From positions 17,748 to 81,747 of the forward strand of contig CALEBF010000012.1 in the NCBI GenBank assembly GCA_937944975.1: 64,000 nucleotides of DNA. Reading direction: 5' to 3'. Below are positions 21,716 through 24,973 of the stretch, in pieces. The notes beneath the pieces are model-generated. The model saw only the letters and a program-made list of their open reading frames with translations. It was not told the origin of the DNA and did not search any database. The DNA comes from an uncultured Mycoplasmatota bacterium. GTDB lineage: Bacteria > Bacillota_I > Bacilli_A > RF39 > UBA660. The position numbers were made by a program, and so were the translations under genes. Every line of letters starts with the position of its first letter. The first letter of the stretch is position 1.

Positions 21716-23015
21716 CGAACGAGATATACATGATCACGTCTCTATCGATACGCGTACGATGAGTGAGGGAGATATATTTATTGCTATTGTAGGAAAAACG
21801 CAAGATGGGCATATCTACGTGAAAGAAGCTGAGAAAAAGAAAGCAGGCGTTATCATCGTATCGCAGGAAATAGAAGATGTTTCAGCTCCGGTGATATTGG
21901 TATCCGATACGACAGAAGCTCTTTTGGCAATGGCAAAACACCATAAAAACACGCATTTTCACGGACTTTTGATTGCGATCACTGGTAGTGTCGGAAAGAC
22001 GACGACGAAGGAAATGGTCGCTCACATTTTGAGTAAAAAGTATCGTGTAGCAAAGTCTCCGGGAAATTATAACAATCATATAGGCGTCCCCCTTACTTTA
22101 CTATCCTTACAAGATGCGGATGAAATTTGTGTTCTTGAGTTGGGCATGAATCATGAGGGAGAAATTTCGAGACTTTCACGTATAAGTGAACCTCACGTTG
22201 CAATGATAACGAAAATAGGAAGTGCTCATATTGGATTCTTAGGTTCTATGGAACGTATTATGCATGCGAAAATGGAAATTACAGACGGTTTGAAAAATGG
22301 AATATTATTGGTGAATGGCGATGATAAGCGATTGAGTAAGTTAAGAGATACGAAAAATTATCAAGTAGGTTTTTGTGGTATCCGTAGAAACGCGATGACA
22401 AAAGTAAGTGAAATTGACGCAACTCTAGATACTTTATCATTTCAACTTTTAGAAGATCATAAGAAATATCACTTCTTTTATCCTTATGGAGGTAAGCATC
22501 TACTTACAAACTTACTTTTAGCGATTGAAATGGGTATTTTATGTGATGTTCCTATCGAATTGATCCAGGAAGCAGTGAGAGAAATGCCTTGTTTTGAAAA
22601 AAGATTAGAAAAAATCTCTTTAAAAGGAAATAATATTCTAATCGACGATACATATAATGCTAGTTTAGATTCTGTACTTGCTGACATTGATTATATGAAT
22701 CTTTATCATGGGAAAAAATTGTTTATATTCGGAGATATTTTAGAGGTAGGTACATTTGGAAAAAGGATTCACCGGGAAATCGCGAAGAAATTAAAGAAAT
22801 GTCACAATTTAGAAGTCCTTTGTATCGGAGAAGAAACAAAGCAATTTTCCAAACTGTTAAAGCGATGTGCACATTTTGATACAGCAGACGAATTAATGAA
22901 AACATTAGATTATGCGAAATTAGAAGATACTTTTATTTTGGTAAAAGGATCGCGTAAGATGCATTTGGATCTGGTTGCTACGAAGATAAAGGATGATTGG
23001 AAGTTATCGAATTGA
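21660..23015 (+). CDS. murF: UDP-N-acetylmuramoyl-tripeptide--D-alanyl-D-alanine ligase
   Basis: Mur-ligase P-loop ITGSVGKTTTKEM and MurF-type N-terminus. Overlaps the upstream gene by 56 nt. Confidence 0.85.
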   Translation: MKLKQIAHIVNGKILSGSDERDIHDHVSIDTRTMSEGDIFIAIVGKTQDGHIYVKEAEKKKAGVIIVSQEIEDVSAPVILVSDTTEALLAMAKHHKNTHFHGLLIAITGSVGKTTTKEMVAHILSKKYRVAKSPGNYNNHIGVPLTLLSLQDADEICVLELGMNHEGEISRLSRISEPHVAMITKIGSAHIGFLGSMERIMHAKMEITDGLKNGILLVNGDDKRLSKLRDTKNYQVGFCGIRRNAMTKVSEIDATLDTLSFQLLEDHKKYHFFYPYGGKHLLTNLLLAIEMGILCDVPIELIQEAVREMPCFEKRLEKISLKGNNILIDDTYNASLDSVLADIDYMNLYHGKKLFIFGDILEVGTFGKRIHREIAKKLKKCHNLEVLCIGEETKQFSKLLKRCAHFDTADELMKTLDYAKLEDTFILVKGSRKMHLDLVATKIKDDWKLSN

Positions 23016-23078
23016 AATGAAAACAATTGACACAATTTGCAAATAAATATACAATGAAGTAGCAAGGGAAGAGGGTTT

Positions 23079-23579
23079 ATGAAAGATATTAAATTTAAAG
23101 AAGGAAATGACTTATTTAACTACAGGGTGGCAGCGGTAATCGAATCGAATTCGAAATATTTATTTCAGAAAATGCCAAATGATATGAATTATACGTTGGT
23201 AGGAGGAAGAGTTCGTTTCATGGAGTCGACAAAAGAGGCCTTAATTAGAGAAGTTTTAGAAGAAGTTGGATACGATATTACAAATGATGACTATCACGTT
23301 GCAGAGATTGCTGAAAATTTTTTTGATTATAAAGATGAAGAAGGAGTTATTCATAAGGTTCAAACATTGTTATTTATCTATAAAGTAAAAATTTTAAAGA
23401 AATCAAACATTATCAAAGATACAATTTTTACAATGCAGGACAAAGACAGTACGACTCTACATTGGCTTAGTTATGATGAAGCAAAAAAAGCTTCTATCTT
23501 ACCATCTATAGCAAAACGCTTGCTACAAGAAGATTCATTGCAATATGAAGTTATAAATGACTGTAAGTATGGAAAATAA
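23079..23579 (+). CDS. NUDIX hydrolase
   Basis: Nudix box GGRVRFMESTKEALIREVLEEVG. Confidence 0.7.
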   Translation: MKDIKFKEGNDLFNYRVAAVIESNSKYLFQKMPNDMNYTLVGGRVRFMESTKEALIREVLEEVGYDITNDDYHVAEIAENFFDYKDEEGVIHKVQTLLFIYKVKILKKSNIIKDTIFTMQDKDSTTLHWLSYDEAKKASILPSIAKRLLQEDSLQYEVINDCKYGK

Positions 23580-23893
23580 TATATAAAGTCCAAGTAATAT
23601 AAAATTCAAGTAAAAACGTAGATACTTTTATTTAGAGTCTATGTTTTTATTTTCATGAAAAATAGAAGGAATTTTGAATTATAGTTTATATCATATTTAT
23701 AGAGAGTTATTGAAGAAGTGATCTTTTGATAACATTAGGAAGATTGTTTTATTTATCGATTATATAAAATTTATCCCTTTTTTCCTGACAACTGGACAAG
23801 CGTGTGATATTTTGCTATATTATTAGTGCATAAGTGATTATGCTGTGCGCTGTTGCATATAATAATAACGCAACTTGTTGCAAAAAAAAGCTA

Positions 23894-23995
23894 GTGATTC
23901 CCACTATGAGAGGAAATTGAAAAGAAGCGATTCCGGCTTTGACAGGAACTTAAAAAAGCGGCGATTCCGGCCATAACAGTGAACTTAAAAAAGGG
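23894..23995 (+). ncRNA. ToxI/antiQ-like antitoxin RNA: about 2.9 tandem 33-34-nt repeats
   Basis: Units begin at 23894, 23927 and 23961 (GYGATTCC...ARGAAMTTRAAAAG). They lie directly upstream of a terminator and a ToxN-family gene, as in type III TA loci. Confidence 0.6.
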
Positions 23996-24026
23996 ACTAG
24001 AGAGCAAACTCTAGTCCTATTTTTTA
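23994..24026 (+). terminator. rho-independent terminator between antitoxin repeats and toxin gene
   Basis: GGACTAGAG-agcaaa-CTCTAGTCC followed by TTTTTT. Confidence 0.75.
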
Positions 24027-24057
24027 ATTAGAATGCAATATGTTCGAAGGTGATTTT

Positions 24058-24567
24058 ATGAAAAATTTTATATTGGTAAGATTGGATTATAATTATTGTG
24101 ATTATTTAAGACAGTTTGATGATAAAGTTCCTTATAATAAAAATAAAAAAGAATTAAGACCATTTATAGGAATTTTATTTGAAAGAAATAATTGTAAGTA
24201 CTTTGCACCATTATCTAGTCCTAAGCCGAAACATAAAACAATGAAAACTACTTTAGATTTTCTAAAAATAGACAATGGTAATTTAGGAACAATTAATTTT
24301 AATAATATACTACCAGTAACAAATCAAAATATCATTAAGTTGGATTTAGATAAGGATTGTTTTACAAGACAAGAAGAAAAATACATAAAGTTGTTAAAGG
24401 AACAATTGTTTTGGTTAAACCGTAATGATGATAAATTATATGGTAGATCTAAAAAGTTATATAATAAATACGTTAATGGGATATTAAATCATGGTATTGC
24501 TAAAAGATGCTGTAATTTTACATTATTGGAGGAAAAATGTATCGAATATAATAGAATCAAAACATAG
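24058..24567 (+). CDS. toxN: ToxN/AbiQ-family endoribonuclease toxin (type III toxin-antitoxin / abortive infection)
   Basis: Recalled ToxN/AbiQ hallmarks: YL..FDDKVP, PFIGI..E....Y.APLSSPKPKH, C.F.LLEEK. AAGGTGA RBS before the ATG at 24058. Confidence 0.75.
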   Translation: MKNFILVRLDYNYCDYLRQFDDKVPYNKNKKELRPFIGILFERNNCKYFAPLSSPKPKHKTMKTTLDFLKIDNGNLGTINFNNILPVTNQNIIKLDLDKDCFTRQEEKYIKLLKEQLFWLNRNDDKLYGRSKKLYNKYVNGILNHGIAKRCCNFTLLEEKCIEYNRIKT

Positions 24568-24592
24568 ATACCGTTGTTTTGATATCTATGTT

Positions 24593-24973
24593 TTATTTTT
24601 GATTTGCTCTCATATTGATTCCGAGCATACTACCAAATATTGTAATCATCATTAAAATAGCGTCGTATAAAATGTTTGTAAGACGGAATGGATCATCCAG
24701 GAAGAATAGTTGAATGAGTGTAAATATGATGATAAAGCCTAGACTCAGTTTTAGACCTTCTAACCATCCCTTTGATTTACTTTTTTTACCAAGTAGGATA
24801 CCTGCTGCAAACAGCGACAAAAACGGTATTAGTAATTTTAGAATGGTAAAAAAGTTCCCTGTTACAAGGTTGAAATAGTTTAGAATCGTTAAAATAAAAC
24901 TAGATACTAACAGCGATAACAATCCAACTCCTAAACAGATTCCCATGGTTTCAAAATATTTTTTGTAATTCAT
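24593..24973 (-). CDS. small integral membrane protein
   Basis: 126 aa with 3-4 TM segments. Confidence 0.4.
   Translation of the reverse strand: MNYKKYFETMGICLGVGLLSLLVSSFILTILNYFNLVTGNFFTILKLLIPFLSLFAAGILLGKKSKSKGWLEGLKLSLGFIIIFTLIQLFFLDDPFRLTNILYDAILMMITIFGSMLGINMRANQK

What the first reader, a model, noticed from the sequence alone, without database searches (positions are those of the whole stretch)
23580..24567. Type III toxin-antitoxin (ToxIN/AbiQ-like) module with an RNA repeat antitoxin
A 170-aa protein (24058-24567) carries the recalled hallmark segments of the ToxN/AbiQ endoribonuclease family: YL..FDDKVP, PFIGI...Y.APLSSPKPKH, C.F.LLEEK. Directly upstream are about 2.9 tandem 33-34-nt repeats (23894-23995), then a strong intrinsic terminator (23994-24026), and the gene follows. 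This is the diagnostic layout of type III TA / abortive-infection loci: a repeat RNA processed by the toxin into pseudoknot antitoxin units, with a terminator attenuating toxin transcription. A 34-nt repeat length and this host have not, to my knowledge, been characterised, so it may be a new ToxIN subfamily.
Basis: partly seen in the sequence, partly recalled or inferred. Interest (0 to 1): 0.75.

Follow-up and report, generated by a model that had tools for sequence, protein, structure and literature searches.

The report
Ordinary ToxIN toxin–RNA antitoxin locus
This is a genuine but typical type III toxin–antitoxin (ToxIN/AbiQ-family) module in an uncultured gut Bacilli bacterium: three RNA pseudoknot repeats, a terminator and a ToxN endoribonuclease gene, the same design already characterised in Bacillus thuringiensis, including its 34-nt repeat.

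Summary
ORF 24058-24567 (169 aa) matches Pfam ToxN_toxin over its full length (E=1.5e-46). Its predicted fold matches ToxN_Bt, ToxN_Ec, ToxN_Pa and AbiQ (TM 0.76-0.79), and the catalytic residues are kept. Upstream on the same strand lie three 32-38-nt units (23882-23986) bounded by four A-tracts, then an intrinsic terminator (23993-24025) and a Shine-Dalgarno site. About 73 of 76 related genome loci with enough upstream DNA carry the same array, and 76 of 77 parsed loci have the terminator. Across 121 distinct units, both helices of an H-type pseudoknot show compensatory changes. toxN is under purifying selection (dN/dS 0.07-0.20).

The novelty claim fails. ToxI of B. thuringiensis pAW63 is 34 nt x 2.9 and its complex structure is solved (4ATO), and the unit plan here is the same. 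The new points are minor: a large, experimentally untouched gut sub-clade whose RNA Rfam's ToxI model misses, units that are position-specific and not homogenised, and one degenerate A4 junction. Toxicity, RNA processing and phage defence are inferred, not shown. Verdict: new member of a known kind, low interest.

The parts
23613..23647 (+). Hairpin/terminator after the NUDIX gene. It is copy 1 of a direct repeat that brackets the toxIN cassette (AAAACGTAGATAC..TCTATGTTTT).
   Evidence: The pattern occurs exactly twice in the 64-kb window, 0 expected. Inverted repeat I3. Also present in L001.
23793..23821 (+). Promoter-like element P1: TGGACA, 17 nt, TATATT, with an upstream TG (extended -10).
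   Evidence: Consensus scan, 10 of 12 matches with TG. The same TAGACA/TTGACT-17-TGnTATATT arrangement is conserved in most related loci. Promoter use is not tested.
23828..23843 (+). Palindrome or 5' hairpin GCATAA-GTGA-TTATGC. It contains GTGATT (23834-23839), a possible -35 for P2.
   Evidence: Predicted hairpin in the RNA fold. Relatives show ACATAAGTGATTATGT versus ACTTAAGTGATTAAGT, a compensatory change. Its role is inferred.
23858..23863 (+). Second -10-like element (P2), TATAAT within TGCATATAAT, 18 nt after GTGATT.
   Evidence: TGCATATAAT is conserved in 39 of 77 related loci. The same string is the -10 region directly upstream of ToxI in pAW63. Not tested.
23870..23881 (+). Leader hairpin B (GCAAC-TT-GTTGC) directly before the first A-tract.
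   Evidence: Predicted in the fold. Relatives carry GCTACTTAGTAGC, GCCTTATGGC or GCTATTAACAATAGC at the same place, so the stem covaries.
23882..23919 (+). toxI unit 1 (A8 tract plus GCTAGTGATTCCCACTATGAGAGGAAATTG). Helix 1 is UAGU/ACUA. Helix 2 is UUCCC / G(A)GGAA.
   Evidence: Pseudoknot pairs supported. Same-position units are 0.92 identical across the sub-clade.
23920..23951 (+). toxI unit 2 (AAAAGAAGCGATTCCGGCTTTGACAGGAACTT). Its 5' junction has only four A's (GAAAAG).
   Evidence: An A4 tract is found in only 2 of 215 family units, here and in L001. The one strain variant, 23928C>T, keeps the pair as G-U.
23952..23986 (+). toxI unit 3 (AAAAAAGCGGCGATTCCGGCCATAACAGTGAACTT). It has a conserved 1-nt insertion (T at 23980) in the 3' strand of helix 2.
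   Evidence: An identical unit occurs in 6 loci. The inserted base varies T/C/A between relatives.
23987..23992 (+). Terminal A6 tract. It supplies the 3' junction (putative cleavage site) for unit 3.
   Evidence: Every related array ends in such a tract directly before the terminator.
23993..24025 (+). Intrinsic terminator between toxI and toxN (GGGACTAGAG-AGCAAA-CTCTAGTCCT, A, T6).
   Evidence: A hairpin plus T-rich tail follows the array in 76 of 77 loci, with a nearly invariant core ACTAGAGAGCAMACTCTAGT.
24047..24054 (+). Shine-Dalgarno sequence AAGGTGAT for toxN.
   Evidence: Sequence. GAAGGTGAT or GGAGGTGAT is conserved before the start codon in relatives.
24058..24567 (+). toxN, a 169-aa ToxN/AbiQ-family endoribonuclease toxin.
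   Evidence: Pfam PF13958 E=1.5e-46, profile positions 3-159 of 159. PADLOC AbiQ 1.5e-38. PDB 4ATO 3.4e-22, 2XD0 7.6e-19, 7D8O 3.2e-18, 4GLK 4.2e-11. AF2 pLDDT 87 with Foldseek TM 0.76-0.79 to those four. dN/dS 0.07-0.20.
24559..24594 (.). Hairpin after toxN. It is a bidirectional terminator shared with the convergent DUF3792 gene (24593-24973, minus strand), and is copy 2 of the direct repeat bracketing the cassette.

Best explanation
This is a chromosomal type III toxin-antitoxin module of the ToxIN family. One transcript starts upstream of 23882, from one or both of two conserved promoter-like elements. It carries a short structured leader, then three ToxI units.

Most transcripts stop at the terminator (23993-24025). 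A minority read through into toxN, so RNA antitoxin is made in excess over toxin. ToxN, a sequence-specific endoribonuclease, cuts the precursor within the A-tracts between units. Each released unit of about 34 nt folds into an H-type pseudoknot. Helix 1 is GGY/RCC-type. In helix 2 the hairpin loop UUCCN pairs with N'(A)GGAA downstream. The single-stranded A-rich tails sit in the active sites of neighbouring ToxN molecules and hold the toxin in an inactive closed protein-RNA complex, by analogy a 3:3 triangle.

When ToxI supply fails, typically through phage-induced shut-off of host transcription, free ToxN cleaves A-rich RNAs and aborts the infection or arrests growth.

Shown here: the family membership and fold of the protein, the conserved catalytic residues, the repeat-terminator-gene layout, its conservation in about 73 loci, the pseudoknot base pairs by covariation, and purifying selection on both gene and RNA.

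Inferred by homology: cleavage in the A-tract, the stoichiometry of the complex, terminator attenuation, toxicity, and the abortive-infection role.
For: Protein: Pfam ToxN_toxin at 158.9 bits against a cut-off of 25, full length. PADLOC AbiQ. The best solved relatives are all ToxN/AbiQ. The predicted fold matches 4ATO, 7D8O, 2XD0 and 4GLK at TM 0.76-0.79, while CptN reaches only 0.52.

The catalytic set K33/T52/S53/K55 plus Y110 and Q117 (PMC8860590) aligns to R34/S53/S54/K56/Y109/Q116. These are invariant or nearly invariant in 35 relatives. K-to-R at the first position also occurs in E. coli ToxN clusters 4 and 5, and Ser at the second position is what AbiQ has.

Layout: tandem array, terminator and gene. 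These are exactly the identification criteria of PMC3401426.

Conservation: the array was found by TRF in about 73 of 76 loci with enough upstream DNA, and the terminator in 76 of 77.

RNA structure: on 61 units of canonical geometry, 93.1% of cells are paired against 25-51% when partners are slid. The covariation score is 0.386 against 0.168 in shuffles (0 of 500 reach it). Double changes occur at three helix-1 pairs (GC 30 / AU 29; UA 38 / CG 20) and at the helix-2 closing pair (CG 26 / GC 26 / AU 2 / GU 2). Over all 121 distinct units, 117 keep that closing pair, using C-G, G-C, A-U, U-A and G-U.

The unit plan is the same as in ToxI_Bt (34 nt), a lactococcal array (36 nt), and Fusobacterium, C. 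botulinum and ToxI_Pa arrays.

Selection: dN/dS is 0.07-0.20 with dS about 1-1.5 against most relatives, yet identical RNA units are shared by up to 15-16 loci. Against L001 the array has 2 substitutions in 110 nt, versus about 29 in 510 nt for toxN and 16 in 147 nt for the promoter/leader.
Against: There is no experimental evidence for this locus or its sub-clade: no toxicity test, no RNA processing data, no phage assay.

Rfam's ToxI model does not hit the array even at E<=10. This is weak evidence, because that model also misses ToxI_Pa and other ToxI arrays.

The unit1/unit2 junction has only four A's, an outlier in the family. If this ToxN needs A/AAAA as ToxN_Bt does, that junction may be cut poorly.

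W57 of ToxN_Pa, reported as needed for toxicity in ToxN_Ec, aligns to K58 here.

The locus sits among housekeeping genes and is fixed in every strain contig seen. Its present biological role, defence or mere persistence, is therefore open.
Confidence: 0.9

Rival explanations
1. It is the same molecular module, but its biological role here is selfish persistence or stabilisation of a genomic segment (addiction), not abortive-infection phage defence.
For: ToxIN_Bt has a documented plasmid-retention role during sporulation (PMC4615649, listed). The cassette looks inserted: toxN has lower GC (0.24 against 0.30-0.40), and a hairpin found only twice in 64 kb brackets it. 78 of 80 related loci lie in other genomic contexts. 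It is fixed in all strain contigs seen.
Against: Several ToxIN/AbiQ members give phage resistance (PMC3401426 abstract; PMC5086642). The locus lies between core genes (MurF, Sua5/TsaC, DUF421), not on an obvious mobile element that would need stabilising. The two roles are not mutually exclusive.
Confidence: 0.25
2. It is a decaying or domesticated remnant: ToxN no longer toxic, or the array no longer an antitoxin, kept only by inertia.
For: The array is more degenerate than in many relatives (76% matches against 90-100%). One junction has only A4. Unit 3 has an insertion in helix 2.
Against: The ORF is intact, dN/dS is 0.07-0.20 and the catalytic residues are invariant. All three units keep both helices. 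Each unit type is conserved at its own position across species with saturated dS. The array evolves more slowly than the CDS against L001. The helix-2 insertion is itself conserved across more than 15 genomes.
Confidence: 0.05
3. The repeats act as DNA (iterons or operator sites), or as a cis-acting leader/attenuator for the downstream gene, not as a trans-acting processed RNA antitoxin.
For: The array and terminator lie in the 5' region of toxN. A palindrome overlaps a promoter-like element upstream.
Against: The compensatory changes preserve intramolecular Watson-Crick and G-U pairs, including 23 G-U/U-G cells. G-U pairs make sense only for RNA. The architecture is that of crystallised ToxI pseudoknots (4ATO, 2XD0). 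No DNA-binding protein is encoded in the cassette.
Confidence: 0.03

Closest known systems
ToxIN_Bt of Bacillus thuringiensis pAW63 (PDB 4ATO; Rfam ToxI RF02519)
   Same: It is the best sequence and fold match among solved structures (E=3.4e-22; TM 0.79). The 34-nt unit length and about 3 units are the same. Units are likewise non-identical (75% matches). The unit plan is the same: A-tract, GGTG, loop, ACC, then a complement of the loop. A TGCATATAAT motif lies upstream, and a terminator lies before toxN.
   Different: Protein identity is only about 29-33%. The RNA sequence differs enough that Rfam ToxI scores nothing here but 59 bits on pAW63. This locus is chromosomal in a gut MAG lineage, not on a conjugative plasmid. 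It has a longer conserved leader upstream of the array. The A/AAAA cleavage specificity is known for Bt only.
ToxIN_Pa of Pectobacterium atrosepticum pECA1039 (PDB 2XD0/2XDD) and ToxIN_Ec (7D8O)
   Same: The fold is the same (TM 0.76-0.79), as is the catalytic constellation and the order of repeats, terminator and toxin.
   Different: Those arrays have 36-nt units, 5.5 nearly identical copies in Pa, and cut at AA/AU or GAAAU, not in a pure A-tract. W57 is replaced by K58 here.
AbiQ/antiQ of Lactococcus lactis pSRQ900 (PDB 4GLK) and the related lactococcal pCV56A-type locus
   Same: AbiQ uses Ser at the catalytic position equivalent to T52, as here. antiQ is 35 nt x 2.8 and is cut at A/AAA. The lactococcal 36-nt unit AAAAAAGCGGTGAATCTCCACCATCAAGTGAGAATC shares its first 13 nt (AAAAAAGCGGTGA) and CACCAT with the consensus unit of the window's family.
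   Different: AbiQ itself is a more distant sequence match (E=4.2e-11). The helix-2 sequence differs (UCUC/GAGA against UUCC/GGAA). Those loci are plasmid-borne.

Membership tests
[quoted passage not shown] | The toxin belongs to the ToxN/AbiQ sequence family (Pfam PF13958). | tested here: met
   158.9 bits against a cut-off of 25, E=1.5e-46, profile positions 3-159 of 159. PADLOC AbiQ E=1.5e-38.
[quoted passage not shown] | ToxN fold. | tested here: met
   AF2 model with pLDDT 87.1 and pTM 0.80. The top four Foldseek PDB hits are 4ATO, 7D8O, 2XD0 and 4GLK, TM 0.76-0.79. The model is a prediction, not a solved structure.
[quoted passage not shown] | Catalytic residues K33, T52, S53, K55 (ToxN_Pa/Ec numbering) and RNA-holding Y110, Q117. 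| tested here: met
   They align to R34, S53, S54, K56, Y109 and Q116 and are invariant or nearly invariant in 35 relatives. K-to-R and T-to-S are substitutions known in active family members. W57 aligns to K58, which differs.
[quoted passage not shown] | Tandem direct repeats of about 31-46 nt directly upstream of the toxin gene on the same strand. | tested here: met
   Period 34, 3.2 copies, 23884-23993. Three complete units. Conserved in about 73 of 76 related loci.
[quoted passage not shown] | Rho-independent terminator between the repeats and the toxin gene. | tested here: met
   A 10-bp stem plus T6 at 23993-24025. Present in 76 of 77 related loci. Its attenuating function is not tested.
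[quoted passage not shown] | Each repeat unit folds into a hairpin-type pseudoknot with single-stranded tails. | tested here: met
   Covariation in both helices: 93% paired against 25-51% in slid controls, 0 of 500 shuffles reach the score, and four pairs show double changes. 117 of 121 units keep the helix-2 closing pair. Tertiary triplexes cannot be assessed.
[quoted passage not shown] | The toxin processes the precursor at an A-rich site between units. | not testable with these tools
   A-tracts of 4-8 A's bound every unit, consistent with A/AAAA (ToxN_Bt) or A/AAA (AbiQ). Cleavage itself needs an experiment.
[quoted passage not shown] | The toxin is toxic, the RNA neutralises it, and the pair confers abortive infection. 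| not testable with these tools
   Only indirect support: purifying selection on the gene and the RNA.
Rfam ToxI (RF02519) | The RNA scores at or above the family's gathering threshold (50 bits). | tested here: not met
   No hit even at E<=10. Control: the 34-nt model hits only ToxI_Bt (59.2 bits) and misses ToxI_Pa and the lactococcal and Fusobacterium arrays. The model is narrow, so this does not argue against ToxI function.
CptIN and TenpIN families of type III TA | The toxin is related to CptN or TenpN. | tested here: not met
   Pfam reports only ToxN_toxin above threshold. CptN (4RMO) is a distant fold match, TM 0.52, E=0.015.

The most novel reading that the evidence does not exclude
In the window's sub-clade the three ToxI units are not interchangeable copies. 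They are three distinct, position-specific pseudoknot types, each conserved across species for longer than synonymous sites take to saturate. Unit 3 carries a conserved helix-2 bulge, and in this species the unit1/unit2 junction is reduced to A4. This could mean an ordered or heterotypic assembly: a defined ToxI-1/2/3:ToxN3 complex, graded affinities, or an uncut two-unit RNA. That would differ from the homotypic repeat model derived from ToxI_Pa.
Probability: 0.15. Interest if true: 0.5.

Novelty: new member of a known kind. Interest (0 to 1): 0.22.

Why it matters
This is mainly an annotation result. It places a complete, apparently functional ToxIN module in the chromosome of an uncultured gut Bacilli lineage. 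The unannotated RNA antitoxin, leader, terminator and true start codon are now mapped.

It also shows that this ToxN sub-clade is very common: 1,736 protein clusters at E<=1e-10 and at least 542 GTDB species representatives. Almost all carry a conserved ToxI array that Rfam does not recognise.

The 121 natural unit variants form a ready-made covariation data set for ToxI-ToxN specificity. The contrast between position-specific and homogenised arrays is a small, testable question about how repeat antitoxins evolve. None of this changes the understanding of type III systems.

Tried and rejected
1. Rfam search of 23500-24700 at E<=10 gave only chance snoRNA and miRNA hits. The positive control showed that the ToxI model is Bt-specific, so I gave the negative no weight.

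2. NCBIfam had no model hit for the protein, although PGAP names homologs 'type III toxin-antitoxin system ToxN/AbiQ family toxin'.

3. MAFFT on all 121 units did not gap the variable loop, so helix 2 looked weak (76% paired). I redid the test on 61 units chosen only by length and register and added a motif-anchored tally.

4. I searched for an empty site. All 10 places shown, from 22 contigs read that carry the identical DUF421 neighbour, have toxIN at the same site. Insertion therefore remains inferred from the bracketing hairpin repeat and the low GC.

5. I tested whether the cassette is phage-borne. The best IMG/VR relative is only 46% identical, so I rejected this for the sub-clade.

6. 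ATG 24040 as start codon was rejected. It is not conserved in L001, and there is no Shine-Dalgarno site before it.

7. The single-strand MFE fold of the precursor cannot represent pseudoknots and pairs distant units. I used it only for the leader hairpins and the terminator.

8. I could not decide which of the two promoter-like elements is used.
Full report
OBSERVATION.

The ORF at 24058-24567 (+) encodes 169 aa containing CDYLRQFDDKVPYN, RPFIGILFERNNCKYFAPLSSPKPKH and CCNFTLLEEKC.

Tandem Repeats Finder reports an array at 23884-23993 with period 34, 3.2 copies and 76% matches. The repeat finder gives three copies spaced 33 and 34 nt apart. Reading the bases directly, there are three complete units: 23882-23919, 23920-23951 and 23952-23986. 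Four A-tracts delimit them: A8 at 23882-23889, A4 at 23920-23923, A6 at 23952-23957 and A6 at 23987-23992.

An intrinsic terminator follows immediately. Its stem is 23993-24002 / 24009-24018, the loop is AGCAAA and the T6 run is at 24020-24025. The scan found three terminator-like sites in the 1.4-kb region against 0.2 expected from shuffles.

AAGGTGAT at 24047-24054 is a Shine-Dalgarno sequence 3 nt before ATG 24058. The upstream in-frame ATG at 24040, which the ORF lister and some gene callers use (175 aa), reads GGG in the closest relative.

THE PROTEIN.

- Pfam gives ToxN_toxin (PF13958) at 158.9 bits (cut-off 25), E=1.5e-46, covering profile positions 3-159 of 159.
- PADLOC gives AbiQ at E=1.5e-38.
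- The only significant solved relatives are ToxN of B. thuringiensis (4ATO, 3.4e-22), ToxN of Pectobacterium (2XD0, 7.6e-19), ToxN of E. coli (7D8O, 3.2e-18) and AbiQ (4GLK, 4.2e-11).
- An AlphaFold model built on 35 relatives (pLDDT 87.1, pTM 0.80) matches those same four structures at TM 0.76-0.79. The next hit, CptN, reaches only TM 0.52.

The residues reported at the ToxN catalytic centre are Lys33, Thr52, Ser53 and Lys55, with Tyr110 and Gln117 holding the RNA (PMC8860590). In the HMMER alignment to 2XD0 they align to R34, S53, S54, K56, Y109 and Q116. All are invariant or nearly invariant among 35 relatives. Lys-to-Arg at the first position is also seen in E. coli clusters 4 and 5. Ser at the second position is what AbiQ uses. 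Trp57 is replaced by K58.

Against ten relatives plus L001, dN/dS is 0.07-0.20.

THE RNA.

I fetched 80 genome loci encoding relatives that are 59-93% identical. Almost all come from gut metagenome-assembled genomes labelled uncultured Bacilli, Tenericutes, Erysipelotrichaceae or Clostridia.

TRF finds a tandem array of 34-40 nt, 2.2-4.2 copies, ending 41-210 nt before the gene in about 73 of the 76 loci with enough upstream DNA. The remaining loci have one or two recognisable units. In 76 of 77 parsed loci a hairpin with a T-rich tail follows the array directly, with a nearly invariant core ACTAGAGAGCAMACTCTAGT.

The family consensus unit is AAAAAAGCGGTGATTCCCACCATAAGAGGAACTT. The 214 units collapse to 121 distinct sequences.

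I proposed an H-type pseudoknot. Helix 1 pairs the bases before GA with the bases after UUCCN. In helix 2 the hairpin loop UUCCN pairs with N'(A)GGAA downstream.

On the full MAFFT alignment, where length variants are misaligned at the 3' side, helix 1 is already clear: GC 78 / AU 41 at one pair and UA 61 / CG 38 / UG 21 at another, with 1 of 121 rows unpaired at each.

On the 61 units of canonical geometry, selected by length and register only:
- 93.1% of cells are paired, against 25-51% when the partners are slid by 1-3 columns.
- The covariation score is 0.386 against 0.168 in shuffles, and no shuffle of 500 reaches it.
- The helix-2 closing pair is CG 26, GC 26, AU 2, GU 2.

A motif-anchored tally over all 121 units finds C-G 47, G-C 44, A-U 22, U-A 2, G-U 2 and 4 mismatches for that pair. 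G-U pairs and intramolecular compensation show that the selected object is an RNA structure.

All three units of the window fit both helices. Unit 3 carries a one-base insertion in the 3' strand of helix 2 (T at 23980). The insertion is conserved in position but varies in identity across more than 15 genomes.

COMPARISON WITH CHARACTERISED ToxI RNAs.

I pulled the arrays from pAW63, pECA1039, a lactococcal plasmid, a Fusobacterium plasmid and a C. botulinum plasmid.
- ToxI_Bt: AAAAATTGGTGTAACCTTACCGTAGTAGGTGCTA, 34 nt, 3.1 copies by TRF, 75% matches.
- Lactococcal unit: AAAAAAGCGGTGAATCTCCACCATCAAGTGAGAATC, 36 nt.

All share the same plan: an A-tract, GGTG, a loop, ACC, then a stretch complementary to the loop.

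The review PMC5086642 gives ToxI_Pa as 36 nt x 5.5, ToxI_Bt as 34 nt x 2.9 and antiQ as 35 nt x 2.8. It gives the cleavage sites as AA/AU, A/AAAA and A/AAA. The best-matching solved complex has exactly that length and copy number.

[quoted passage not shown] All are met.

Rfam's ToxI model (RF02519, 34 positions) does not hit the window even at E<=10. As a control, it hits only ToxI_Bt (59 bits) and misses ToxI_Pa and the lactococcal and Fusobacterium arrays. The negative therefore says only that this RNA sub-family is not in Rfam.

UPSTREAM REGION.

Two promoter-like elements are conserved.
- P1 is TGGACA-17-TATATT with an upstream TG, at 23793-23821.
- P2 is GTGATT-18-TATAAT at 23834-23863. 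Its TGCATATAAT string is also the -10 region in front of ToxI_Bt.

Between and after them lie three structures:
- the palindrome GCATAA-GTGA-TTATGC (23828-23843), which changes in a compensatory way in relatives;
- a TGCA-N4-TGCA-type hairpin in relatives;
- hairpin B (23870-23881), whose stem covaries.

I cannot tell which promoter is used. If P1 is used, the transcript has a structured leader of about 55 nt that the characterised ToxIN loci lack.

CONTEXT.

The neighbours are housekeeping genes: a peptidase C26/GATase, MurF and a NUDIX hydrolase upstream, then DUF3792, DUF421/YetF, Sua5/TsaC and a polysaccharide-synthesis/MATE-like flippase downstream.

The 10 strain-level places shown, from 22 contigs read that carry the identical DUF421 protein, all have toxIN at the same site. 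One is GCA_902493485.1, which is 100% identical over 23580-24620. At most four differences occur in that 1,041-nt stretch. The only substitution inside a unit, 23928C>T, turns a C-G pair into U-G.

Against L001 (ToxN 93% identical, same flanks) the array has 2 substitutions in 110 nt. toxN has about 29 in 510 nt, and the promoter/leader has 16 in 147 nt.

The other 78 loci share none of the window's flanking genes. toxN has lower GC than its surroundings (0.24 against 0.30-0.40). A hairpin that occurs only twice in the 64-kb window brackets the cassette (23613-23647 and 24559-24594). Together these suggest an old insertion of a mobile cassette, but I found no empty site.

The sub-clade is not represented on IMG/VR viral contigs, where the best relative is 46% identical.

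The family is large: 1,736 protein clusters at E<=1e-10 and at least 542 confirmed matches in the GTDB species representatives.

MECHANISM.

By homology, the locus should work as ToxIN does.
1. The array is transcribed in excess because most transcripts stop at the terminator.
2. ToxN cuts the precursor in the A-tracts.
3. Each pseudoknot, with its A-rich tails, occupies the active sites of neighbouring ToxN molecules in a closed, inactive complex.
4. Loss of ToxI supply frees ToxN to cleave A-rich RNA.

Shown here are family membership, fold, catalytic residues, layout, pseudoknot pairs and selection. Inferred are cleavage, stoichiometry, attenuation, toxicity and the defence role.

WHAT IS SLIGHTLY UNUSUAL.

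In the window's sub-clade (23 loci with three units), units at the same position in different species are 0.87-0.92 identical. Units at different positions are only 0.72-0.79 identical, even within one locus. This holds although synonymous sites of toxN are saturated.

In the more distant loci the opposite holds. Units are homogenised within a locus (0.86-0.92) and show no position effect.

The window and L001 also have the only A4 junction among 215 units. Whether the three unit types are functionally distinct is open. ToxI_Bt is likewise heterotypic, so this is a small refinement, not a new kind of system.

VERDICT.

The type III TA interpretation is supported at about 0.9 confidence. The novelty claim is refuted. 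This is a new, uncharacterised member of a known kind, and its interest is low.

Noticed in passing
window 23613-23647 and 24559-24594: Two similar terminator hairpins (AAAACRTAGATAC..TCTATGTTTT) occur only twice in the 64-kb window and bracket the toxIN cassette as a direct repeat. toxN also has lower GC (0.24) than its flanks. This may be a scar of cassette insertion into a bidirectional terminator.
   Followed up: partly
window 23005-23560 versus L001 2530-2580: The NUDIX gene (23079-23579) is absent from the closest relative L001. There, the MurF 3' end is fused to the last ~30 nt of the NUDIX gene at an 8-nt microhomology (GAAGTTAT). This indicates a deletion in L001 that also shortens MurF by two residues.
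   Followed up: partly
window 23882-23986; loci L001-L025 versus L026-L080: Units are position-specific in the window's sub-clade: 0.87-0.92 identity for the same position across species, against 0.72-0.79 between positions. In more distant loci they are homogenised within each array (0.86-0.92). These are two modes of repeat evolution in one family.
   Followed up: yes
window 23920-23923: The junction between units 1 and 2 has only four A's (GAAAAG). Only 2 of 215 units in the family, here and in L001, have so short a tract, and 169 have A6. Processing at this junction may be inefficient.
   Followed up: partly
window 23793-23881 and the equivalent regions of L001-L080: The upstream region is conserved, with two promoter-like elements (TAGACA-17-TGnTATATT, and GTGATT-18-TATAAT within TGCATATAAT), a covarying palindrome around GTGA, and a covarying hairpin just before the first A-tract. 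TGCATATAAT is also the -10 region upstream of ToxI in pAW63.
   Followed up: partly
window 24029-24034; relatives such as L003 and L005-L008, between terminator and RBS: Many relatives carry a conserved AGTATATAAT between the terminator and the toxN ribosome-binding site, and the window has TAGAAT. This may be a weak internal promoter for toxN, or just AT-rich spacer.
   Followed up: no
L052, L063 (one unit); L062 (two units, the first missed by the parser): Some relatives have only one or two ToxI units, flanked by A-tracts, before the conserved terminator. The minimal natural array in this family is therefore a single unit.
   Followed up: no
L083 (pECA1039), L082, L081 versus Rfam RF02519: Rfam's ToxI model is a 34-nt B. 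thuringiensis-type model. It does not detect the prototype ToxI of Pectobacterium or other ToxI arrays at gathering threshold, so most ToxI RNAs would go unannotated by Rfam.
   Followed up: yes
L081 1474-2346 (Fusobacterium polymorphum plasmid pKKCOM1330A): The ToxN homolog closest to the window among plasmids (47.5% identity) is annotated as a 290-aa protein, so the ToxN domain carries a C-terminal extension of about 120 aa. An HNH endonuclease gene follows it. Its ToxI array is 37 nt x 3.4.
   Followed up: no
window 23581-23612: A 16-nt tandem duplication (ATATAAAGTCCAAGTA / ATATAAAATTCAAGTA) lies directly after the NUDIX stop codon. L001 has only one copy-like stretch there. Its significance is unknown.
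   Followed up: no
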